Source: a virus (lineage: Duplodnaviria; Heunggongvirae; Uroviricota; Caudoviricetes). From it: DNA of 29,945 bases. Position 1 is the first letter of the stretch. Every line of letters starts with the position of its first letter. Below the pieces are notes generated by a model. That model was not told the DNA's origin and did not search any database. It worked only from the letters and a program-made list of their open reading frames with translations. The stretch is taken from IMG/VR virus record IMGVR_UViG_2671181114_000018; one strand, given 5' to 3'. Below, piece after piece: positions 1-27,199 of the stretch. A program made the position numbers and the translations under genes.

Positions 1-1365
1 TTATGGACGGAGGCAATACTCGGCAATTCGAAGCGCTGAAATGTGCTTTTCATGGATCATGTCGTTCCCGCATCCGCATTCATTCTCACATGGTTCTCGC
101 ACCCATACACCATCGCTATTTTTTCGGTAGAACCATCCAGGACGAAAACCTGCGTTCTGCATATACATCCCTGGGTGAACGACAACTAATTCACATACTT
201 CAATCAGGTCAGTCTCATGGCATATGATTCCAATTCCCTTCTGATACACGGCCTGAAAGTCTTTATTGACATGTTTTATTAGTTCATCTATCTCAAAAGC
301 GACGTAATTTTTTCCTTTAAGAAGCCGCTCTATCTTTGGCAAGCGCAATGGAGAATTGTCATTATCTGTACCAAAGAGAATTATGCTGGGTGAACTTATT
401 GTAACGCCGCCTGTTAATTCGCCTCTCATCGTTTCAATAGAGTCAAATAGCTCAGCTATTTTCCCACCACGATAGAAAGCAATACTAGGAGAAACGTTTT
501 TCACATAACTATCATGATATTCAGGTAATTCAAGTGACCGCTTGAATACAGGAATATCTATATTTGGATCCCTTAATTGTTCAACTTCCCGCCAAGGTAA
601 GTCTAATAACTCCTTGAGGATAGGATCCTCCGTAACTGACGGGAATAAGGAATTTGTATCAGTGATTGCATTCAATACGGCATATTGTTTTAAAAGTGAC
701 CGACTAGCTTTTATCTGTGCAATAAAGCAATTTTCTGGAACTGGCTCTCCATATAGCGGCCCTAGTAACCAAGCATCTTGGGCCTGCATTCTGGGTCGGA
801 AACCCTTAATTTCAATATCAGAAAGATCAACCAAACCAAGACGAGATGCTAGTGATTTATCTAGAATGTAGAGATATCCATCTCCATCTTCATAATAATA
901 CCTTACCGCTTTTTTTATCAGCCATATGGGGTTTTCATTACAGTCTTCGCACATGTCTATCTTTGGCGGTGGAGATGGTTTTATTGACAGTGAACATTTA
1001 TGACTCGCAAACCAAGCGGCAACTGCAGGGTTAGTGGTACAGTCAACATAGAATGATCTCCATCCATAGTGTTGTAACAGTGCCTGTACATATTCCAGAT
1101 CGTTTGCATGGCTACCAATTACTCCCTCAAGCACACTTGCAGCATAGCTAATCCACTTTATCATCGTTGACTTGTTACATTCATCGCGATCAAAAGAAGC
1201 AAGTACGGATGGTACCTCCTGCTTACCATAGAGAGAATTTTGACCTCGAAATAATACATTGTCACCAAACTGTGCAATTACAGCTTCCAGCTCACTAATA
1301 GTTCTGACCTCAAATTGTTCCAATTCTTCCCTCTCCCCTGAATTCGCAATCATGGCATCTTGCAC
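1..1365 (-). CDS. Hypothetical accessory protein with N-terminal FRG-like motif and Cys-rich C-terminus (candidate defence/cargo gene)
   Basis: Complete 454-aa ORF (stop = revcomp of nt 1-3). Contains 'VLFRGQNSLYGK' near the N-terminus, which I recall as the FRG domain signature, and Cys clusters (CEDCNENP; PCENECGCGNDMIHEKH). Visibly AT-rich compared with the phage structural genes. Function not known from sequence. Confidence 0.45.
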   Translation of the reverse strand: MQDAMIANSGEREELEQFEVRTISELEAVIAQFGDNVLFRGQNSLYGKQEVPSVLASFDRDECNKSTMIKWISYAASVLEGVIGSHANDLEYVQALLQHYGWRSFYVDCTTNPAVAAWFASHKCSLSIKPSPPPKIDMCEDCNENPIWLIKKAVRYYYEDGDGYLYILDKSLASRLGLVDLSDIEIKGFRPRMQAQDAWLLGPLYGEPVPENCFIAQIKASRSLLKQYAVLNAITDTNSLFPSVTEDPILKELLDLPWREVEQLRDPNIDIPVFKRSLELPEYHDSYVKNVSPSIAFYRGGKIAELFDSIETMRGELTGGVTISSPSIILFGTDNDNSPLRLPKIERLLKGKNYVAFEIDELIKHVNKDFQAVYQKGIGIICHETDLIEVCELVVVHPGMYMQNAGFRPGWFYRKNSDGVWVREPCENECGCGNDMIHEKHISALRIAEYCLRP

Positions 1366-12852: not shown

Positions 12853-13145
12853 TTCCCTGCCCCTTTATCAAAAATCCCTGTAAGGCCACGTTTGCGCAGC
12901 CAGGCTTCCACCACGTTCTGCCCCAGAATACCCAGCGCGGAACCAATGCCGGCCAGCGCAAGTGGGTGAATATCCGGGACAAAGTACAGTGCCACGCCGG
13001 CAATTAGTGACAATCCGCTGCCAACAATGACACGGCCAGTGACCAGCCGAAGGGTGATCGGCTCGTCGCTGTTGAGTAATTTCCCCAGTGCAATCATCGC
13101 CCCCATGACAGCCAGTGCAATGAACCCTTTTTCATACTCCTGCAT
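12849..13145 (-). CDS. Holin (putative)
   Basis: 98 aa with 2-3 hydrophobic segments ('FIALAVMGAMIALG', 'VIVGSGLSLIAGVALYFV', 'LALAGIGSALGILG') and a charged C-terminus; directly upstream of the endolysin. Confidence 0.6.
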   Translation of the reverse strand: MQEYEKGFIALAVMGAMIALGKLLNSDEPITLRLVTGRVIVGSGLSLIAGVALYFVPDIHPLALAGIGSALGILGQNVVEAWLRKRGLTGIFDKGAGK

Positions 13146-19415: not shown

Positions 19416-21200
19416 ATGGCTAAATACTCAGAAGAATTAAAAGGCGTTGCGCGGGCGCTTTATTTAAAACGTTATACCCCGCAGGAAATTGCCAGTGAAC
19501 TTAATCTGCCTAACAGACGCATTGTCTATTACTGGGCAGCGAAATATTGCTGGGCGGAATTACTCAGCCACGAATCAACCGAGGACGCATTAAACCGCCG
19601 CATTCAGTCTCTGACATTACGTGAAGGGAAATCCGAGCTGGAGCTGCGGGAGCTGGACAGCCTCGTTTCTCACCTGGTGAAACTGCGAGCACAGCATAAT
19701 AAGCATCAGGAAAAACTGGCAGAAATTAAGCACAGCGAAAGTGATGCGCCGACGTCCCGTCAGTCCGGTGGAGACGAAAAGCCCCGTAAACGTGGCAAGT
19801 ACAAAAAAAATGATATCAGCGGGCTGACGCAGGAAGATTTCGACCGGTTCGCGCTCGAGCACCTTTTCGGCTACCAGAAACACCTTCGCGCCAATCTCAA
19901 TCAGCAAATCAGGAACATCCTGAAAAGTCGCCAGATTGGCGCAACCTGGTATTTCTCAATAGAAGCCTTTGAAAATGCGGTTATGACAGGCGATCCGCAA
20001 ATCTTCCTGTCCGCGTCAAAGGCTCAGGCTGAAGTGTTCCGCAGCTATATCGTCAACATTGCGGAGCAGTATTTCGGCGTGGAGCTGACAGGCAACCCCA
20101 TCCGCCTGTCCAACGGTGCGGAGTTGCGCTTCCTGTCCACCAATAAGAACACCGCCCAGTCATACAGTGGTCATCTGTATTGTGATGAATATTTCTGGGT
20201 ACCCAACTTTGCAAAATTAAACGAAGTGGCCAGCGCAATGGCCACACACGACAAATGGCGCACCACCTACTTTTCCACTCCCAGCAGCAAAACACACCAG
20301 GCTTACCCGTTCTGGACAGGTGAAGAATGGAAGCGCGGCAACAAAAAACGCGCACGCGTGGCGTTTCCAACAGAGAAGGAGCTGCGTGACGGTGGACGGT
20401 TATGTCCTGATGGCCAGTGGCGCTACATCATCACACTGGAAGACGCGATTGCGGGCGGGTTCAATCTGGCCAGCATCGAAAAACTACGTAATCGCTACAA
20501 CCGCGACACTTTCAACATGCTGTACATGTGCGTTTTCGTGGACAGCAAAGACAGCGTTTTTTCGTTCTCCCATGTGGAACGCTGCTGTATTGATCCGGAT
20601 ATCTGGGAGGATCATGACGAAGACCTGCCCCGGCCATTCGGCAATCGTGAAGTATGGGCAGGCTATGACCCGGCTCGCAGCGGCGACACCTCAACCTTTG
20701 TCATTGTCGCCCCGCCGATAGTGGCCGTCGAAAAATTTCGCGTACTACGCGTATTCCACTGGCAGGGAATGAACTGGAAATGGCAGGCGGCACAAATCAA
20801 AAAACTGTTTGGCCAGTACAACATGACTTACATCGGGATTGATATCACCGGGCTGGGGAGTGGTGTCTTTGAAGATGTGCAGCACTTTGCCATGCGTCAG
20901 GCGGTGGCTATCCGCTATGGCGTGGAAACCAAAAACCGCCTGGTGATGAAGATGATCGACGTTATCGAAGACAACCGCGTGGAGTGGGACAAGGAGAAAA
21001 CTGAAATCGCCGCCAGCTTTATGACCATCCGCAGAACGTCCACGGCCAGCGGTAACGCCATGACGTTTGTTGCCGACCGTACAGCTGAAACCGGCCACGC
21101 TGACAGTTTCTGGGCTATCGCCCATGCCATAGACAACGAACCATTACACTTTGAAAACCAGCGCAAATCACGCTGGGGTAACTTAGGGAAAGCAGCATGA
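19416..21200 (+). CDS. Terminase ATPase (large) subunit (P2 P-like)
   Basis: Track ORF 19401-21200 (599 aa); probable start 'MAKYSEELKG' at 19416. Size and position (P then Q, divergent from O-N-M-L) as P2 gpP. Confidence 0.85.
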   Translation: MAKYSEELKGVARALYLKRYTPQEIASELNLPNRRIVYYWAAKYCWAELLSHESTEDALNRRIQSLTLREGKSELELRELDSLVSHLVKLRAQHNKHQEKLAEIKHSESDAPTSRQSGGDEKPRKRGKYKKNDISGLTQEDFDRFALEHLFGYQKHLRANLNQQIRNILKSRQIGATWYFSIEAFENAVMTGDPQIFLSASKAQAEVFRSYIVNIAEQYFGVELTGNPIRLSNGAELRFLSTNKNTAQSYSGHLYCDEYFWVPNFAKLNEVASAMATHDKWRTTYFSTPSSKTHQAYPFWTGEEWKRGNKKRARVAFPTEKELRDGGRLCPDGQWRYIITLEDAIAGGFNLASIEKLRNRYNRDTFNMLYMCVFVDSKDSVFSFSHVERCCIDPDIWEDHDEDLPRPFGNREVWAGYDPARSGDTSTFVIVAPPIVAVEKFRVLRVFHWQGMNWKWQAAQIKKLFGQYNMTYIGIDITGLGSGVFEDVQHFAMRQAVAIRYGVETKNRLVMKMIDVIEDNRVEWDKEKTEIAASFMTIRRTSTASGNAMTFVADRTAETGHADSFWAIAHAIDNEPLHFENQRKSRWGNLGKAA

Positions 21201-22216
21201 AAAAACGGAAATACAGGGAACGCCGCACCGTTACCAAACAACGCCATATGAGCCTTATCACGCTGGGCAAGCCAGAACCCATTCTGACGACCGGCACGAA
21301 CTATACAGACGTCTGGTATGACAATGAGGCGGAACACTGGACGCTCCCGATTGACAGGCTGGCACTGGCACAACTGGTGAACCTGAACGCGCAGCACGGC
21401 GGCGTGCTGTATGCCCGTCGCAATATGGTGACAGCAAATTATGATGGCGGCGGCCTGACACATGAGCAACTGGGCGCGGCCGTATTTGACTGGCTGACGT
21501 TCGGTGATGTGGCCATTCTCAAAGTACGTAACGGCTGGGGGGATGTGGTTGCACTGTACCCGCTGCCGGCGCTCTATACCCGCCAGCGTAAGACCGGGGA
21601 ATTTGTTGTACTTCAGCAGGGTGAACCGGTGATTTATCCGCCTGAAGATATTATTTTTCTCAGGCAGTACGACCCGCAACAGGCTATTTATGGTCTTCCG
21701 GATTACATCAGCGGCATCCACTCCGCCCTGCTCAACGGTGAAGCCACGATTTTTCGCCGGCGTTACTATCACAACGGTGCTCACACGGGCGGTGTGCTCT
21801 ATTCCAATGACCCGAATATGACCGATGAAGTGGAAGAAGAAATTATTCAGAAGCTGGAGCAGTCAAAGGGGATCGGGAATTTCAGCACCATGTTTGTGAA
21901 TATCCCCAAAGGTGATCCGGATGCCATCAAATTTATCCCGATTGGTGATATCAGCGCCAAAGATGAGTTTCAGAACGTGAAAAGCATCAGCGCTCAGGAT
22001 GTACTGACCGCGCACCGTTTCCCGGCCGGTCTGGCCGGAATTATCCCCACGAACGGGGCAGTAATGGGGGATATTGAGAAAGCGGCCAAAACATACCGCA
22101 AAGCGGAGATTTTACCTATTCAGCGCATGTTCACCGCCGCAGTGGAGCAAGAAAGTGATGTACCACCCCACCTGTACCTTAATTTCCTGAAAGACAGTGA
22201 GCTGGAAGGTGATTAA
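21197..22216 (+). CDS. Portal (capsid vertex) protein (P2 Q-like)
   Basis: 339 aa immediately downstream of and overlapping the large terminase gene; size as P2 gpQ. Confidence 0.85.
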   Translation: MKKRKYRERRTVTKQRHMSLITLGKPEPILTTGTNYTDVWYDNEAEHWTLPIDRLALAQLVNLNAQHGGVLYARRNMVTANYDGGGLTHEQLGAAVFDWLTFGDVAILKVRNGWGDVVALYPLPALYTRQRKTGEFVVLQQGEPVIYPPEDIIFLRQYDPQQAIYGLPDYISGIHSALLNGEATIFRRRYYHNGAHTGGVLYSNDPNMTDEVEEEIIQKLEQSKGIGNFSTMFVNIPKGDPDAIKFIPIGDISAKDEFQNVKSISAQDVLTAHRFPAGLAGIIPTNGAVMGDIEKAAKTYRKAEILPIQRMFTAAVEQESDVPPHLYLNFLKDSELEGD

Positions 22217-22269
22217 TGTCCGCAAAAAGGCTAAAATATCATCGTTTTCCAACTTCCGGAGCGATGGAT

Positions 22270-22545
22270 ATGCGGGTAATGAAGGTTTACTGTCCGGTAT
22301 GTGAGGCAAGGGCTGTTATCAAAAAAACAGCCAGAAAACACAAGGAGCTGTCTGATTTATATTGCGCCTGTACTGATGTTGAATGCGGTCACACTTTTGT
22401 GATGAATATGACGTTCTCACATACCATCAGCCCCAGCGCCAAATCCAGCGATGCGTTGATCGCCACTATCTGTAACAGCCTTGATATGCAGCAAAAACAG
22501 CTGATGCTCAAATTTTTAAGTCAGGATGCTACCGCAGCAGCATAG
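22270..22545 (+). CDS. ogr: Ogr/Delta-family zinc-finger late transcription activator
   Basis: Track ORF starts at 22216 overlapping the Q stop; likely start at Met 'MRVMKVYCPVC' (22270, GGAG about 9 nt upstream) or 'MKVYCPVC' (22279). Cys pattern CPVC...YCACTDVECGHTF parallels P2 Ogr CPLC...HQCQNVNCSATF as I recall it. Confidence 0.7.
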   Translation: MRVMKVYCPVCEARAVIKKTARKHKELSDLYCACTDVECGHTFVMNMTFSHTISPSAKSSDALIATICNSLDMQQKQLMLKFLSQDATAAA

Positions 22546-22574
22546 AAAAAGGCACCGTTACAGGTGCCTTTTTT
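22546..22574. terminator. Bidirectional rho-independent terminator between ogr-like gene and the convergent cargo gene
   Basis: aaaaa-ggcacc-gttaca-ggtgcc-tttttt: 6-bp GC stem flanked by an A-run and a T-run, immediately after the ogr stop and 17 nt from the stop of the minus-strand cargo gene. Confidence 0.6.
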
Positions 22575-22590
22575 CATAGACACTGAGCAA

Positions 22591-23598
22591 TTATTTGCTT
22601 TTATTTCCATCATTATTAGGATGATTTACAGGAGTAAGGCCTGAGGCTACATCATTAGCAGTTTGAAGACTGGTAGGAATCAGACCGGGCCAATTTGCCC
22701 CATTTAGTCCCCAATTGAGTTTAGCTAAATTCTCACCAGGCCAGGTTGATTTCGCAGAATTTAAATCAAGTCCCTGAAGCCCCTGAAGCCCCTGAACCCC
22801 CTGAAACCCCAGAGAACCTAAAGTCGGCCTGGCAAAAGGCAGTGTATTCTTAGATATTTCCTGATTAATATCGTCTAATTTATTTTGATTCGCTATAATT
22901 TTGGCATTCAAATCCATCAATTCTTTTTCTTTTAATTCCAATTCCGTCCTCACCTTCGAAATTGAGTCCATAGCATTATAATAAGAATTGGTAACTGACT
23001 GAACCTCTTTTCCCTTTTCCTTTATTAACTCATTAATATCCCTGAGCTTTACCTGAGCGTTATTATATTTATCTTCAAGCGCGTTTGTATCATATTCGAT
23101 AGCTTTATTTGCCTTTTCAGCATTTAACCTCGCTTTTGCGTCTGCATATTCATACTCGACATTTTTATTTATTTCGTCTATTTTTAAATCAAGAGCACTC
23201 TGTTTTCTCTTACTATCATTTGTACTCTTTTTCGTAAGCACTCCATTTTGTATTACATCAACAACATATGAGATAAAAGGAGTGCCAACTACAAATATAA
23301 TTGAGGCAACAAATGGATACCAAAACGTATGAGTATGAGGGATGCTAATTCCAAAAAAGACACTATTTGATGGTAACGCCTTTATTTTTTCAATACGTTG
23401 TTCTATGTCCAGACTGAACGAGAATAAGAGTAATAGAGTGCGGTCCCAGTTACAGAGAATCCAAGAGGATATGAAGCATAGAAAAAATGGATTTGATAAC
23501 CGTTGATTAACAGCTTTCACTACCGGTTCAGTTGTAACTGATTTTACCGCATCCAAAGCTTTATCTATTGTTTCGCTCATTTTAGGAGTATCAACCAT
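22591..23598 (-). CDS. Accessory membrane-anchored coiled-coil protein with C-terminal collagen-like G-x-Q repeats (candidate superinfection-exclusion/defence cargo)
   Basis: 335-aa ORF (start may be the internal Met 'MSETIDK'). Hydrophobic N-terminal segments ('FFLCFISSWILC', 'VASIIFVVGTPFISYVV'), long K/E-rich heptad region, C-terminal 'GFQGVQGLQGLQGL'. Visibly AT-rich; sits between the replication gene and ogr/portal, the position of tin/old in P2. Confidence 0.5.
   Translation of the reverse strand: MVDTPKMSETIDKALDAVKSVTTEPVVKAVNQRLSNPFFLCFISSWILCNWDRTLLLLFSFSLDIEQRIEKIKALPSNSVFFGISIPHTHTFWYPFVASIIFVVGTPFISYVVDVIQNGVLTKKSTNDSKRKQSALDLKIDEINKNVEYEYADAKARLNAEKANKAIEYDTNALEDKYNNAQVKLRDINELIKEKGKEVQSVTNSYYNAMDSISKVRTELELKEKELMDLNAKIIANQNKLDDINQEISKNTLPFARPTLGSLGFQGVQGLQGLQGLDLNSAKSTWPGENLAKLNWGLNGANWPGLIPTSLQTANDVASGLTPVNHPNNDGNKSK
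22772..22807. repeat. In-frame tandem repeat, 4 units of 9 bp (ccctgaagc x2, ccctgaacc, ccctgaaac) inside the cargo gene
   Basis: Read directly from the plus strand; on the minus strand the units encode the G-L/F/V-Q triplets of the collagen-like tail. Confidence 0.9.
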
Positions 23599-23714
23599 TA
23601 TTTTTAAACAAAGTTATTGATAAATGAATAATATCATACTACTAGAAAACTGTAACATCACGACTTCCTTCATGATGTCACAGTTTTTAGCTATAACTGA
23701 GAGATATAAAGTAG

Positions 23715-26369
23715 TTAATCTCGTTTAAAAATCCAGCATCGGAATGTATCCGGCATCCGTTGCATATCCCCTTTACCACGGTTATGGCGCTCACTAACTG
23801 CGCTGCGCGTGGTGCTTTGTCTGATGAACCGACGTTCATTACCGTTTTTAAGCAGCTTTTTGATTTCCGTTAAAGTGAACGGAATCCGCTGCCGGTGTGC
23901 TGCTGCGACTTCTTCCATATGATTGAAATTAATTGCAATTTCATTTTCATCTGATGAGTGATTGACGCCATAGGGTGCCAGTTCATCCAGGTAATCAAAC
24001 AGTTCCCAAAACTCCTGCACCATCGGGTGATCCTTTTTAAGCGCCTGACAACGTTCAATAGCCAGCGCGGTGATGGCTTCGCGAGTTTTTTCTATGCGTT
24101 CAACCGGTACCGGCACAACAAGCGCAAGCGCCTCCAGCAAACCCACAAGCTGCGCGTGATTCTTTGCAATACGGATATGGCGAATACTACTGTTAGATTC
24201 CAGCGCATTCCTGGCGCGTTCGTATCCCTTACCGAACGTCTGCATGATTTCTTTCTCACGCATGGTGGCCAGTAGTGTGAATCCCGATACCTGGCTAACA
24301 GGGAGTTGTTCCAGCCGCTCCGCAGCGTGGCGCGTCTGAATAGACTGCCCGCGCTTGTCGGTATAGATATGGATAATACGCTCCAGAAACGCCTTGCTGC
24401 CGTCTGTATCAGCGTTCTGCGCAATCACAATACTGCCCCTGAATGGCGGTTCGTATGTTTCGTTATTGTTGGACTTTATCCCCACAGCACGGGAAGCGCG
24501 GCCGTTATACAATGATTTCAGTTCATCCCAGTCAAAAGCACGTTGCTTGGCGTTATCCGTTGTGCGGTCGCCTTCGATTAACACAACCGGCAGGTTGCCG
24601 ACCTGGGCAAAGTTGCGCCCACGCGCTGCGGCCGTGGACTTAGAAGGATCAAAACCTTCATATTCTTCACGGCCGGCGAGCTTCCACAGAAATTCAATCA
24701 GTGTAGATTTACCTGTCCCCGGTTCACCCACGATTTCCAGAAACGGGAATGACTTATCGCGCTCCCGGATTTGTTCGGCAAAAAGCGACCCCAGCCAGAA
24801 TGCTAGCGCCACGTACCCCTTTTCACCAAATGCCGTCCAGATATCGTCAATCCAGCCCGTGGTAAATTCATTCAGCTTTGGATTCAGATCCAGCGATGGT
24901 GTCAGGCTCAGGCTTTTTACACTGGCGTGATTGATTTCAAAATAGTCTTCATCGTTCATCTCATACAGCCGGCCATCGCACACGGCCACACGGTTAAACA
25001 GCCACGCTGAATAATCTTTGTTGTAGCCGATAAAGTTCTGTGTCTTAACCTCTTTTATTTCAGGAAGCCGCATCTGGATGAACTTATCCAGTTGCTTGGT
25101 GCTGCCGGTGTATACCGCCCCTTTGGCGATATGCAGCAAACGTTTCTTAAACTCGGCGGAGCTGGTGAGCTGGTTCGCCGTGAAGGTATCCTTCACCGCT
25201 GGCCGGTTCGGCATGTTGACCTTAACGTAATACCAGGACTCGTCAGTAGGTTCAGAACGCTGGAAATAGAGCGGAGTCAGCCAGCAGTTAGCTATTTCTG
25301 TCACGCCGCCAGATTCTTTCACCGCACGTTCTTTGGCTTCCCAGTCCTGGATAACTTCGGTACCGGTATTACTTATGCGCTCATAGGCTCGCATGTACCT
25401 GTCCAGATCCAGTTCAAACCAGAACATGCGGGAATTATGTTCAAAATAGAACGAATGCCACTCATTATGCTGATGCATGAGCAGCGCTTTTTCAGTCGGA
25501 CTTTTCGCCAGCAGAATATCGCCATAGTAGCGATAATTTTTGATGTCCGATTTACTGAACCGGCCACGCAACAACAAGTCATTCCAGTCCAGACAGGAGG
25601 ATGATTTCACCGGCTGCGCCGCACGAACTTTCCAGCCGGCATCCTCACTACGTGCAGCAAATGCCAGCGTGTGCTTTGTGCCGGCCTTATCGCCGTCAAA
25701 TGCCCATACAAGGCGTGGGCGCGGTTTTTCGCCCAGTTCTTTGGCCAGCGTATCCAGTGCGGCCAGAGGGTAGTTGTTACTGCTCAGTGTGGCAACTGCG
25801 GGTAAACCCGCCTGGCAAAGACTCAGCGCATTAAATATCCCCTCAGTGATCCAGATTTCATTCACTTCCAGCAGGTTGACAGAAGGTGGTACCCACCAAT
25901 GGCCAACATAACTCCCTTTAATATTGGCTTTTTGCTTACCAAAGCGTTGGGGCTGGTCAATAATGCGCTCCCACGTCGCACCACATGCCAGCTTAAATTT
26001 GACTGTTGCCGATCCCATGCCATCTTTAACAAACGCGCCCTGGGTGAAAATGCCTTTCAGTGGTTCGGTATCCAGCCCTCTGGCCTCACGCAGATACGCC
26101 TCAGCAGCTGCGTGTGGGGTTTCAGGAGTGTCCTGATACCGTTTAGACCAGTCCTCAAAAATATCCGGGTACAGCTCTTTAACAACGACCTGATGGCCGC
26201 AGTTATTTTCGCGACCACACTTCAGAATCCAGGGCTTATCTATGCTGGTGAATAATTCGCGCTTACGACACTTAGGGCATACACCCTGCTGCAAATACTT
26301 ATCCCGCTCTTTAAACTCAAAATCCTGAACAAGACGGCGCACAACGTCCTGTTGTATCGTTGCGTTCAT
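23715..26369 (-). CDS. Replicative primase-helicase, P4 alpha-type (zinc-binding primase + D5-like SF3 helicase)
   Basis: Track ORF 23715-26405 (896 aa); probable start 'MNATIQQ' (26369). N-terminal zinc-ribbon Cys pairs (CPKC...CGRENNCGH), Walker A 'GEPGTGKST' in the helicase part; size and domain order resemble P4 alpha. Confidence 0.8.
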   Translation of the reverse strand: MNATIQQDVVRRLVQDFEFKERDKYLQQGVCPKCRKRELFTSIDKPWILKCGRENNCGHQVVVKELYPDIFEDWSKRYQDTPETPHAAAEAYLREARGLDTEPLKGIFTQGAFVKDGMGSATVKFKLACGATWERIIDQPQRFGKQKANIKGSYVGHWWVPPSVNLLEVNEIWITEGIFNALSLCQAGLPAVATLSSNNYPLAALDTLAKELGEKPRPRLVWAFDGDKAGTKHTLAFAARSEDAGWKVRAAQPVKSSSCLDWNDLLLRGRFSKSDIKNYRYYGDILLAKSPTEKALLMHQHNEWHSFYFEHNSRMFWFELDLDRYMRAYERISNTGTEVIQDWEAKERAVKESGGVTEIANCWLTPLYFQRSEPTDESWYYVKVNMPNRPAVKDTFTANQLTSSAEFKKRLLHIAKGAVYTGSTKQLDKFIQMRLPEIKEVKTQNFIGYNKDYSAWLFNRVAVCDGRLYEMNDEDYFEINHASVKSLSLTPSLDLNPKLNEFTTGWIDDIWTAFGEKGYVALAFWLGSLFAEQIRERDKSFPFLEIVGEPGTGKSTLIEFLWKLAGREEYEGFDPSKSTAAARGRNFAQVGNLPVVLIEGDRTTDNAKQRAFDWDELKSLYNGRASRAVGIKSNNNETYEPPFRGSIVIAQNADTDGSKAFLERIIHIYTDKRGQSIQTRHAAERLEQLPVSQVSGFTLLATMREKEIMQTFGKGYERARNALESNSSIRHIRIAKNHAQLVGLLEALALVVPVPVERIEKTREAITALAIERCQALKKDHPMVQEFWELFDYLDELAPYGVNHSSDENEIAINFNHMEEVAAAHRQRIPFTLTEIKKLLKNGNERRFIRQSTTRSAVSERHNRGKGDMQRMPDTFRCWIFKRD

Positions 26370-26408
26370 ATATAATCCATGTGTGAAATGATGAATAAAA
26401 GGCAAAAA

Positions 26409-26627
26409 CTATATTCTGTACTGCTTGTTATATCTTTCATGCGTCATTAACTCCCAGCTTCTGCCCTTATCCTTACTAAGCAAACGCCAGCGATAGGAGA
26501 CATGAACAGAGAAATAATGATTTGGTTTTATAACCTGATATATCTTTTTGCCGTTGTAATATTCTGTCAGCGCTGAAAATGCCTTGTTAATGACACTTTC
26601 ACTTGCATGAGAGGTCACTTTCAGCAT
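26409..26627 (-). CDS. Hypothetical early protein
   Basis: 72-aa ORF immediately upstream of the primase-helicase gene in the same operon; AT-rich; no motif recognised. Confidence 0.35.
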   Translation of the reverse strand: MLKVTSHASESVINKAFSALTEYYNGKKIYQVIKPNHYFSVHVSYRWRLLSKDKGRSWELMTHERYNKQYRI

Positions 26628-26629
26628 AG

Positions 26630-27199
26630 TTATTTCACACTGGCTATTTTAACGAGATAAGTCCAGACGTAAGACACTAGTTTAGCCTGATAAATAGCGT
26701 CATATAGTGCATGGTGCGGTGTACCTTCAAATTTAATAATATTTTTGATGTTCAAACCTAAATCTTTGGCCAGCGCATTTATCGTCCTGACATCCCGGTC
26801 ATTCCAGTAATTCCACATCGGGCTTAACAAGCCTACCTTATTTGCAGCATGGCGGAGGATAACGTTATCAAACGACGCTCCATTACCCCAAACCTGTAAA
26901 TGATGTGCATCAGTGAGTTCACTGATAAAGTGGAAAAGGTCAGAAATGGCCGTATCCAGCGGACAATTCGCATCATTAATAATCTCGCTCCTTGCTTCGG
27001 AGGACTGACGCAGCCACCACAGAACTGTATCGGCTCCCATAGTGCAGTCGTAATCAACGCTACTTGCAAGACTGACACGGCGATAGAAAGTTTCCCCCAT
27101 TTCACCCGTTTCCGGATTAAATAATACAGCGCCAATAGCGGTAATTGCTGCCGTTGGTTTGTTATCCATTGTTTCAAGATCAATCATTAAATGTTTCAT
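26630..27199 (-). CDS. 3'-5' exonuclease (DnaQ-like fold)
   Basis: 189 aa beginning 'MKHLMIDLETMDNKPTAAITAIGAV...', an Exo I-type motif (D-x-E); later 'HHALYDA' resembles the Exo III motif. Common in P2-like early operons. Confidence 0.65.
   Translation of the reverse strand: MKHLMIDLETMDNKPTAAITAIGAVLFNPETGEMGETFYRRVSLASSVDYDCTMGADTVLWWLRQSSEARSEIINDANCPLDTAISDLFHFISELTDAHHLQVWGNGASFDNVILRHAANKVGLLSPMWNYWNDRDVRTINALAKDLGLNIKNIIKFEGTPHHALYDAIYQAKLVSYVWTYLVKIASVK

What the first reader, a model, noticed from the sequence alone, without database searches (positions are those of the whole stretch)
22772..22807. In-frame 9-bp tandem repeat encoding the collagen-like tail of the cargo protein
Four consecutive 9-bp units (ccctgaagc-type) encode the G-x-Q triplets. 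Short in-frame tandem repeats are slipped-strand hotspots, so the repeat number, and hence the length of the extracellular or periplasmic tail, could vary between isolates.
Basis: seen in the sequence. Interest (0 to 1): 0.45.

Follow-up and report, generated by a model that had tools for sequence, protein, structure and literature searches.

The report
Variable 9-bp repeat in prophage gene
A short 9-base repeat inside an uncharacterised accessory gene of a P2-like prophage really does change copy number (2, 4 or 5 units) between otherwise identical E. coli and Salmonella copies, lengthening a floppy protein tail by three amino acids at a time. This is a clean but ordinary example of replication slippage, not a collagen-like structure.

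Summary
Window 22768-22810 holds a period-9 tandem array, the best in the window and never reached in 100 shuffles. It lies in frame in the minus-strand ORF 22591-23598 and encodes GFQ-GVQ-GLQ-GLQ-(GLD).

The predicted copy-number variation is also confirmed. An E. coli contig with 5 units matches the window at 12,999 aligned positions with 0 mismatches and a single 9-bp gap. Exact protein look-ups found 2-, 4- and 5-unit alleles on an identical backbone. More diverged alleles carry 1 unit or 3 degenerate units.

Two parts of the interpretation fail:
- "Collagen-like" is not supported: there are only 5 triplets, no proline and no Pfam Collagen hit. Homologues replace the glycine (NLS, NPFADGVS units), and AlphaFold gives pLDDT about 30.
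- "Extracellular or periplasmic" is unlikely: lysine/arginine distribution predicts an N-in/C-in membrane hairpin, which puts the coiled coil and tail in the cytoplasm.

The gene is low-GC (36.5%) and sits between the primase and the ogr/portal genes, the cos-proximal P2 hotspot. It has no known domain or defence-family match. Other lineages carry unrelated in-frame arrays at the same position in the gene, so the tail is recurrently repeat-prone.

In kind this is a new member of a known class, a coding VNTR.

The parts
22768..22810 (-). 9-bp tandem array (unit GGG-NTT-CAG on the coding strand). It has 4 full units plus a terminal GGA-CTT-GAT and encodes GFQ-GVQ-GLQ-GLQ-GLD (aa 264-278).
   Evidence: TRF; sequence; codon parse; shuffle test.
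22591..23598 (-). Accessory (cargo) ORF, 335 aa from ATG 23598 (329 aa if started at ATG 23580, the start used in WP_062877090.1). No Pfam, NCBIfam or PADLOC family; matches phrog_4780 (unknown function).
23230..23598 (-). Conserved N-terminal membrane module (aa 1-123). It has a weak hydrophobic helix at aa 38-60, a strong one at aa 93-117, and the motifs NPFF...W..NW and P95/P107. Mean pairwise identity among 44 homologues is 74%.
   Evidence: Hydropathy; alignment; conservation; 130 remote clusters.
22846..23229 (-). Single long helix or coiled coil (aa 124-251), pLDDT about 90. Its length is invariant (0% indel positions) across 44 homologues.
   Evidence: AlphaFold.
22594..22845 (-). Hypervariable, predicted disordered C-terminal tail (aa 252-335, pLDDT about 30). 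It holds the repeat array followed by two W-P-G-x-(N)-L motifs. Across homologues identity is 25%, 39% of positions are indels, and length ranges from 51 to 184 aa.
22546..22574 (.). Bidirectional terminator hairpin (AAAAAGGCACC-GTTACA-GGTGCCTTTTTT) between the convergent ogr gene and the cargo gene.
   Evidence: Fold: -19.2 kcal/mol (z -5.3) on + and -17.4 kcal/mol (z -3.9) on -.
23628..23656 (-). Promoter-like site (GTTACA, 17 nt spacer, TG-TATTAT) in the 116-bp gap between the primase gene and the cargo ORF. Consensus match only.
22216..22545 (+). Ogr/Delta zinc-finger gene; one border of the cargo slot.
   Evidence: Pfam (E 1e-15).
23715..26405 (-). Toprim primase/helicase-like replication gene; the other border of the cargo slot.
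   Evidence: Pfam.

Best explanation
The array is a coding variable-number tandem repeat. Its 9-bp units (GGG-NTT-CAG) lie in the part of a prophage accessory gene that encodes a disordered, low-complexity tail. They misalign during replication (slipped-strand mispairing, or unequal exchange between units), which adds or removes whole G-x-Q triplets without breaking the reading frame.

Shown: the array is real and in frame. Alleles with 2, 4 and 5 units exist on an identical protein backbone, and a one-unit difference is the only change in about 13 kb between two E. coli prophages.

Inferred: slippage is the mechanism. The triplets act as a flexible spacer between a fixed-length coiled coil and the distal W-P-G motifs, not as a folded or collagen-type element. 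The protein is a membrane-anchored hairpin with a cytoplasmic coiled coil and tail, expressed from the cos-proximal hotspot of a P2-like prophage. Its most likely role is exclusion of, or abortive defence against, other phages.
For: - Array and significance. Frame and units.
- L001 (E. coli GCA_014573215.1, 5 units) against the window: 12,999 aligned positions, 0 mismatches, one 9-bp gap; 100.0% identity across the gene.
- Exact look-ups of synthetic alleles on the window backbone. n=4 is WP_062877090.1 (E. coli). n=2 is WP_238067817.1 (Salmonella). n=5 is P0054 plus a Logan copy.
- The Salmonella 2-unit gene differs by about 4 substitutions plus an 18-bp gap.
- One-unit alleles (L004, L014) and a degenerate three-unit allele (L006, L007) occur in lineages 83-93% identical.
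- Tail disordered: pLDDT about 30.
- Tail indel-rich while the coiled coil has no indels.
- Unrelated in-frame arrays at the same gene position in other lineages: 24 bp x6.6, 9 bp x5.3, 9/18 bp x7.6, 18 bp x2.8.
- Slot and cargo nature. P2 hotspot defined between the replication gene and the portal gene in PMC9122126.
- Topology.
Against: - No read-level or within-culture data, so the rate of change is not measured.
- 3- and 6-unit alleles on the exact backbone were not found. The 2-to-4 step also needs a point change (the GTT unit), so history is not purely one-unit steps.
- Only about 40 of 256 cluster members could be read.
- Function of the protein is entirely inferred: there is no PADLOC, Pfam or structural match.
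- The gene occupies the same slot in every homologue context examined, so it may be a lineage-typical accessory gene rather than freely shuffled cargo.
- Topology rests on the positive-inside rule only.
Confidence: 0.8

Rival explanations
1. Adaptive tuning. The repeat, and the tail as a whole, is a specificity or reach determinant of a phage-sensing or phage-blocking protein. Copy-number change is selected as a quick way to alter what the protein recognises, an in-frame 'contingency' repeat in an arms-race gene.
For: - Independent, unrelated in-frame arrays sit at the same gene position in at least five lineages.
- A second tandem duplication (16 aa) occurs further down the tail in Salmonella alleles.
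- The tail is the only hypervariable part, while the coiled-coil length is strictly fixed.
- The gene sits in a known defence hotspot (PMC9122126).
- Most unknown genes tested at the analogous P4 hotspot conferred protection, 6 of 8 (PMC13586616).
Against: - No phenotype is known.
- Low-complexity disordered segments accumulate repeats neutrally.
- The units encode bland G/L/Q/N/S residues rather than an obvious binding surface.
- The change is length only, with no on/off switching.
- No test for selection was possible.
Confidence: 0.15
2. Collagen-like structural element. The Gly-X-Y triplets, nucleated by the adjacent coiled coil, form a short trimeric collagen triple helix whose length is set by repeat number.
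For: - The formal pattern (G-x-Q)4-G-L-D gives 5 consecutive Gly-X-Y triplets directly after a long coiled coil that could in principle oligomerise.
Against: - Only 5 triplets (1-2 in common alleles), with no Pro and no charged pairs.
- Pfam Collagen was not hit even at E<=0.1.
- pLDDT is about 30.
- In homologues the equivalent segment is NLS-NLS-NLS, GLN-SLN or NPFADGVS. Gly is not kept every third residue; what is kept is a hydrophobic residue every third position. This is incompatible with a collagen helix.
- The predicted cytoplasmic location is atypical for collagen-like proteins.
Confidence: 0.03
3. Artefact. The copy-number differences are assembly or sequencing errors in short-read drafts, not biological variation.
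For: - All alleles come from draft assemblies. The 4-unit allele is on one NCBI contig, which is the window's own source.
Against: - The whole array is at most 54 bp, shorter than a read, so assemblers do not collapse it.
- The 5-unit allele is seen in two NCBI assemblies and one independent Logan assembly.
- The 2-unit allele is on 33 or more contigs and in two IMG/VR contigs.
- Differences are always exact multiples of 9 at unit boundaries.
Confidence: 0.02

Closest known systems
Coding VNTRs (minisatellites) of bacterial genes, e.g. the loci used for MLVA typing of Salmonella and E. coli, and the Ser-Asp repeats of staphylococcal surface proteins (PMC3324548, listed but not read; MLVA from my own knowledge)
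   Same: Short head-to-tail units with length a multiple of three, in a low-complexity protein segment. Copy number differs between closely related isolates with no other change. Slipped-strand mispairing is the accepted mechanism.
   Different: This array is very short (1-5 units) and lies in a prophage accessory gene of unknown function. The tail is predicted cytoplasmic rather than part of a surface adhesin. No typing scheme or phenotype is attached to it.
Phase-variable contingency loci (simple-sequence repeats that switch genes on and off; my own knowledge)
   Same: Repeat-mediated, high-frequency, reversible length change in a gene involved in conflict with the environment.
   Different: The unit is 9 bp, so the frame is never broken. 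There is no on/off switching, only a 3-aa length change. The defining frameshift or promoter-spacing effect is absent.
old and tin of phage P2, and other cargo of the cos-proximal hotspot of P2-like prophages (Rousset et al. 2022, PMC9122126)
   Same: Same genomic slot: after the replication gene, before the portal gene, next to cos. Low GC. The slot is replaceable, since a different gene sits there in E. coli NT1F10. The gene is co-directional with the early operon and has its own promoter-like site and terminator.
   Different: No sequence or domain similarity to Old, Tin or any PADLOC family. Anti-phage activity is untested. An ogr gene lies between the cargo and the portal gene. The replication gene is a Toprim primase rather than P2 gpA.
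Bacterial collagen-like proteins (Scl1/Scl2, BclA; Pfam PF01391; my own knowledge)
   Same: A run of Gly-X-Y triplets whose number varies between strains through repeat slippage.
   Different: Those have tens of triplets, are rich in Pro or charged residues, are secreted or surface-exposed, and are detected by the Collagen HMM. Here there are 5 triplets, none of these properties, and the Gly is not conserved in homologues.

Membership tests
Coding variable-number tandem repeat (VNTR) | Head-to-tail near-identical units, more than chance | tested here: met
   TRF period 9, 4.8 copies, 91% matches, score 65. 0 of 100 shuffles reach the self-match score.
Coding variable-number tandem repeat (VNTR) | Copy number differs between otherwise (near-)identical alleles by whole units | tested here: met
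   2, 4 and 5 units on an identical protein backbone. The 4- and 5-unit prophages differ by a single 9-bp gap and 0 mismatches in 12,999 aligned positions.
Coding variable-number tandem repeat (VNTR) | Unit length a multiple of three, so the reading frame is preserved in all alleles | tested here: met
   All alleles translate through to the same C-terminus.
Coding variable-number tandem repeat (VNTR) | Length heterogeneity within a single culture (ongoing slippage) | not testable with these tools
   No read-level data are available.
Phase-variable contingency locus | Repeat change switches expression on and off (frameshift or promoter spacing) | tested here: not met
   9-bp unit inside the CDS; no allele is frameshifted.
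Collagen-like (Gly-X-Y) repeat protein, Pfam PF01391 | Match to the Collagen HMM / long uninterrupted Gly-X-Y run | tested here: not met
   0 Pfam families at E<=0.1. Only 5 triplets here, and 1-2 in the commonest alleles.
Collagen-like (Gly-X-Y) repeat protein, Pfam PF01391 | Gly strictly conserved at every third position across homologues; Pro or charged residues at X/Y | tested here: not met
   Homologues have NLS, SLN or NPFADGVS units at this site. A hydrophobic residue, not Gly, is the period-3 constant. There is no Pro in the array.
Collagen-like (Gly-X-Y) repeat protein, Pfam PF01391 | Forms a triple helix | not testable with these tools
   The AlphaFold monomer gives pLDDT about 30 for aa 252-335, which is not evidence of a fold.
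Cargo of the cos-proximal hotspot of P2-like prophages (PMC9122126) | Lies between the replication gene and the portal gene of a P2-type prophage | tested here: met
   Toprim primase 23715-26405, cargo 22591-23598, ogr 22216-22545, portal 21197-22216. P2-family capsid, GPO scaffold and terminase are also present. The hotspot is defined.
Cargo of the cos-proximal hotspot of P2-like prophages (PMC9122126) | Slot holds different genes in related prophages | tested here: met
   18 complete E. coli genomes match only the flanks at about 90% identity. The one inspected, NT1F10, carries an unrelated 240-aa gene there. However, all 11 contexts retrieved for homologues of this protein have it in the same slot.
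Cargo of the cos-proximal hotspot of P2-like prophages (PMC9122126) | Confers protection against other phages | not testable with these tools
   Needs cloning and a phage challenge.
Known anti-phage defence families (PADLOC-DB v2) | Significant full-domain match to a defence protein model | tested here: not met
   Only weak coiled-coil matches to LmuB/JetC arms (best E 5e-5, aa 127-250), with no ATPase head. NCBIfam gives the same coiled-coil noise.

The most novel reading that the evidence does not exclude
The protein is the founding member of an undescribed single-gene prophage defence or exclusion family. It would consist of an N-in/C-in membrane hairpin, a fixed-length cytoplasmic coiled-coil 'ruler' and a hypervariable tail. 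The recurrent in-frame tandem arrays at the coil-tail junction, which arose independently with different units in E. coli/Salmonella, Enterobacter and Pectobacterium lineages, would be a selected mechanism for rapidly retuning the reach or specificity of the tail against competing phages.
Probability: 0.12. Interest if true: 0.6.

Novelty: new member of a known kind. Interest (0 to 1): 0.3.

Why it matters
On its own the finding matters little. It is a tidy natural example of replication slippage outpacing point mutation: one 9-bp change against zero substitutions in 13 kb. It could serve as a fine-scale marker for tracking this prophage among E. coli and Salmonella isolates.

The more useful by-product is the gene itself. 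It is a widespread accessory protein (130 clusters at 50% identity for its N-terminal module), completely uncharacterised, membrane-anchored and coiled-coil. It occupies the P2-type defence hotspot, and its tail repeatedly evolves tandem repeats at the same point. That makes it a reasonable candidate for experimental anti-phage screening, and the natural 1-, 2-, 4- and 5-unit alleles are a ready-made series for testing whether tail length matters.

Tried and rejected
- **Collagen reading.** Rejected: no Pfam hit, too short, and Gly is not conserved in homologues.
- **PADLOC, NCBIfam, Pfam.** Only coiled-coil noise (LmuB/JetC/SMC/Rad50 arms), so the gene is not filed under any of them. PHROGs gives phrog_4780 and phrog_13369, both of unknown function.
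- **Pfam scan of 113 remote relatives of the N-terminal module.** No informative domain.
- **Structure.** The AlphaFold model has mean pLDDT 63 and pTM 0.25. Foldseek against BFVD and PDB found nothing at E<=0.001. A PDB sequence search of the N-terminal module found nothing below E 0.1.
- **DNA pattern scans for further alleles.** Flank-anchored, with a variable gap. Two 2-unit copies turned up in IMG/VR. There were none with 5-7 units in IMG/VR, and none with 2-5 units in GTDB representative genomes or JGI metagenomes.
- **Protein-based locus scans.** They added only 1 GTDB locus and 6 IMG/VR loci.
- **Complete E. coli genomes.** They lack this gene; only the flanks match.
- **Phage GenBank records.** One distant homologue (33% identity), in a lambdoid Klebsiella phage.
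- **Plus-strand ORF 22746-22853 (PEAPEAPEPPETPE).** This is just the repeat read on the other strand and was disregarded.
- **Exact look-ups of hypothetical 1-, 3- and 6-unit alleles on the window backbone.** Not in the collection.

Full report
**1. The observation**

The plus strand at 22772-22807 reads ccctgaagc, ccctgaagc, ccctgaacc, ccctgaaac. Tandem Repeats Finder reports 22768-22810 with period 9, 4.8 copies, 91% matches and score 65. This is the top array of the twelve it lists for the window.

I computed a simple local self-match score over periods 4-15. It gives 22 at period 9, starting at 22771. In 100 dinucleotide-preserving shuffles of the whole window the mean is 9.1 and the maximum is 13. 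The repeat is real, lies at the stated coordinates and is more than chance.

**2. Reading frame and product**

The array lies in the minus-strand ORF 22591-23598 (335 aa). In codon register the units are:
- GGG-TTT-CAG
- GGG-GTT-CAG
- GGG-CTT-CAG
- GGG-CTT-CAG
- GGA-CTT-GAT (terminal)

These encode G264-F-Q-G-V-Q-G-L-Q-G-L-Q-G-L-D278, so the G-x-Q triplets are correct. The short plus-strand ORF 22746-22853 is only the repeat read backwards.

**3. Genomic setting**

The window is 100% identical over 17,355 bp to E. coli GCA_001606445.1, contig LOGK01000057.1. It is a prophage with:
- a P2-type head and packaging module: P2-family capsid, GPO scaffold, large terminase and portal;
- an integrase, an HTH repressor and Cox;
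- a 3'-5' exonuclease and a Toprim primase.

The ORF sits between the primase (23715-26405, minus strand) and ogr/Delta (22216-22545, plus strand), which abuts the portal gene. Rousset et al. defined the P2 hotspot as the cos-proximal region between the replication gene and the portal gene, where P2 itself carries old and tin (PMC9122126).

Several features fit a cargo gene:
- Its GC content is 36.5% against 50.1% for the window.
- It is followed by a strong bidirectional terminator hairpin at 22546-22574.
- It is preceded by a promoter-like site in a 116-bp gap.
- In 18 complete E. coli genomes only the flanks match. The one inspected, NT1F10, has an unrelated 240-aa gene in the slot.

One caveat applies. 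All 11 genomic contexts retrieved for homologues show this family in the same slot of the same phage type. It is therefore a frequent occupant of the slot.

**4. The protein**

No library gives a meaningful match:
- Pfam finds no family.
- NCBIfam gives only sub-threshold coiled-coil matches.
- PADLOC gives only weak coiled-coil matches to LmuB/JetC arms.
- PHROGs gives phrog_4780 (E 2e-71), of unknown function.

Forty-six cluster representatives were found in Salmonella, Citrobacter, Enterobacter, Yokenella and Pectobacterium.

The alignment and the AlphaFold model divide the protein into three parts:

| Part | Residues | Model | Variation across 44 homologues |
|---|---|---|---|
| N-terminal module | 1-123 | helices, moderate confidence | 74% mean identity |
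| Long helix (coiled coil) | 124-251 | pLDDT about 90 | 55% identity, 0% indel positions |
| Tail | 252-335 | pLDDT about 30 | 25% identity, 39% indel positions, length 51-184 aa |

The N-terminal module has a weak hydrophobic helix at aa 38-60 and a strong one at aa 93-117.

The density of Lys and Arg points to the topology. It is 0.30 per residue just after the second helix, 0.13 before the first, and 0.10 in the loop between them. The same trend holds in 113 remote relatives. By the positive-inside rule this predicts an N-in/C-in hairpin. The coiled coil and the tail would then be cytoplasmic, not periplasmic or extracellular. This is an inference.

The N-terminal module alone finds 130 clusters at 50% identity. 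It is always N-terminal in proteins that are mostly 250-480 aa long. No informative Pfam domain appears in any of the 113 scanned.

A 33%-identical homologue in the lambdoid Klebsiella phage ST11-VIM1phi8.2 lies on the opposite strand between the replication and nin genes, which is a typical moron position.

Fold and sequence searches against BFVD and PDB found nothing.

**5. Does copy number vary?**

Yes. The allelic series is as follows.

| Units | Where found | Relation to the window |
|---|---|---|
| 5 | L001, E. coli GCA_014573215.1; also a second NCBI contig and a Logan assembly | 12,999 aligned positions, 0 mismatches, one 9-bp gap |
| 4 | Window; WP_062877090.1 (E. coli) | identical |
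| 2 | WP_238067817.1 (Salmonella); P0050 and relatives on 33 or more contigs; two IMG/VR contigs | identical protein backbone; gene DNA differs by about 4 substitutions and an 18-bp gap, in a prophage 96.8% identical overall |
| 3 (degenerate: GFP-VLQ-GFQ) | L006, L007 | 83% protein identity |
| 1 | L004 and the very common P0047 (494 contigs); L014 | 93.5% DNA identity (L004); 83% protein identity (L014) |

The 2-, 4- and 5-unit alleles on the identical backbone were found by constructing synthetic alleles on the window's exact protein sequence and looking them up by identity.

The arrays are at most 54 bp and every difference is an exact multiple of 9, so assembly error is not a credible explanation.

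**6. What the repeat is not**

It is collagen-like only in the formal sense of five Gly-X-Y triplets. The evidence against a collagen structure is:
- There is no proline in the array.
- The Collagen HMM is not hit.
- The commonest alleles have one or two triplets.
- The region is predicted disordered.

Most tellingly, homologues have different repeats at the equivalent position: NLS-NLS-NLS, GLN-SLN-GLN-SLS, LGALNNLGTLNGLGTL or NPFADGVS. What recurs is a hydrophobic residue every third position next to G/N/S, not an invariant glycine.

The repeat is also not a phase-variation switch, because a 9-bp unit never breaks the frame.

**7. A wider pattern**

TRF on the homologous genes shows unrelated DNA arrays, all in frame, at the same place in the gene, roughly nt 754-960:
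- 24 bp x 6.6 in Pectobacterium (L018)
- 9 bp x 5.3 (L019)
- 9/18 bp x 7.6 in Enterobacter (L020)
- 18 bp x 2.8 (L021)

Salmonella alleles P0064, P0066 and P0068 add a 16-aa tandem duplication further down the tail. The junction between the fixed-length coiled coil and the tail is thus recurrently repeat-bearing.

This may simply reflect tolerance of a disordered linker to slippage; that is my preferred reading. Alternatively it may reflect selection for rapid change in a conflict gene. The data here cannot separate the two.

**8. Mechanism**

*Shown:* a real, in-frame tandem array. Whole-unit copy-number polymorphism between otherwise identical alleles. Location in the prophage hotspot.

*Inferred:* slipped-strand mispairing during replication as the cause; each unit carries a G4-5 run, and adjacent units are identical. 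The triplets act as a flexible spacer. The tail is cytoplasmic. The protein has a role in exclusion or abortive defence. This last point rests on slot, composition, membrane anchor and analogy with old/tin. It also draws on the report that 6 of 8 unknown genes tested at the P4 hotspot conferred protection (PMC13586616).

**9. Novelty and score**

Coding VNTRs that vary by slippage are well known, so this is a new member of that kind and specialists would not be surprised. The clean natural allelic series and the uncharacterised hotspot protein give it modest value. Interest 0.3.

The most novel reading not excluded is a new single-gene defence family whose tail is retuned by recurrent in-frame repeats. 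I give it a probability of about 0.12.

Noticed in passing
L018:4777-4958, L019:4771-4818, L020:4754-4836, L021:4777-4838 (gene nt about 754-960 of homologues): Homologous genes in Pectobacterium, Enterobacter and other lineages carry unrelated in-frame tandem arrays at the same position as the window's repeat. The arrays are 24 bp x6.6 encoding NPFADGVS, 9 bp x5.3 encoding NLS, 9/18 bp x7.6, and 18 bp x2.8.
   Followed up: partly
Proteins P0064, P0066, P0068 (Salmonella); equivalent to window about 22650-22720: A 16-aa (48-bp) tandem duplication, KLNWGQGINWPNLNSA, lies in the distal tail of some Salmonella alleles. It is a second, larger-unit copy-number variant in the same tail. More distant homologues (P0028-P0032) have 2-4 copies of a roughly 30-aa W-P-x-x-N-L...L...A motif.
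   Followed up: partly
window 22846-23229 (-): The coiled-coil segment (aa 124-251) has no indel positions at all across 44 homologues that are only 55% identical there. The adjacent tail has 39% indel positions. This suggests the length of the helix is under strict constraint.
   Followed up: no
window 1-1365 (-) and 1449-1716: At the left end of the window there is a 454-aa ORF with an FRG domain (Pfam E 1e-7), at 41% GC. It may be another accessory gene. Upstream of it lies a cluster of small tandem repeats (AACCATCAC x2, TGTGATGGTTT x3.1, TTTGTGACG x2) in a long non-coding gap.
   Followed up: no
window 22546-22574: A strong bidirectional intrinsic-terminator hairpin with U/A runs on both sides lies between the convergent ogr and cargo genes. 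The consensus scan missed it because the T-run is absorbed into the stem.
   Followed up: yes
Cluster of P0005: Many Salmonella draft assemblies hold only N-terminal 'partial' fragments (112-167 aa) of this protein at contig ends. Assemblies therefore often break inside the gene near the start of the coiled coil. This is unexplained; one possibility is two prophages per genome sharing the 5' half.
   Followed up: no
window 22216-22219: The ogr/Delta gene starts at the portal gene's stop (ATGA overlap at 22216). It lies between the portal gene and the cargo slot, unlike P2, where ogr is elsewhere. Some relatives annotate a shorter 89-91 aa ogr separated from the portal gene.
   Followed up: no
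window about 26410-26630 (-); L022:6954-7172: A 72-aa ParE_like ORF lies between the exonuclease and primase genes. It is present in the window's source record, in L004 and in L023, but was not called in L001/L002.
   Followed up: no
L023 versus window: The Salmonella prophage carrying the 2-unit allele has a different integrase and attachment site (next to pheA/pheL rather than yegS/yegR) and is 96.8% identical overall. Its cargo gene and neighbouring 2 kb are about 99.6% identical to the window, which suggests mosaic exchange around the hotspot.
   Followed up: partly
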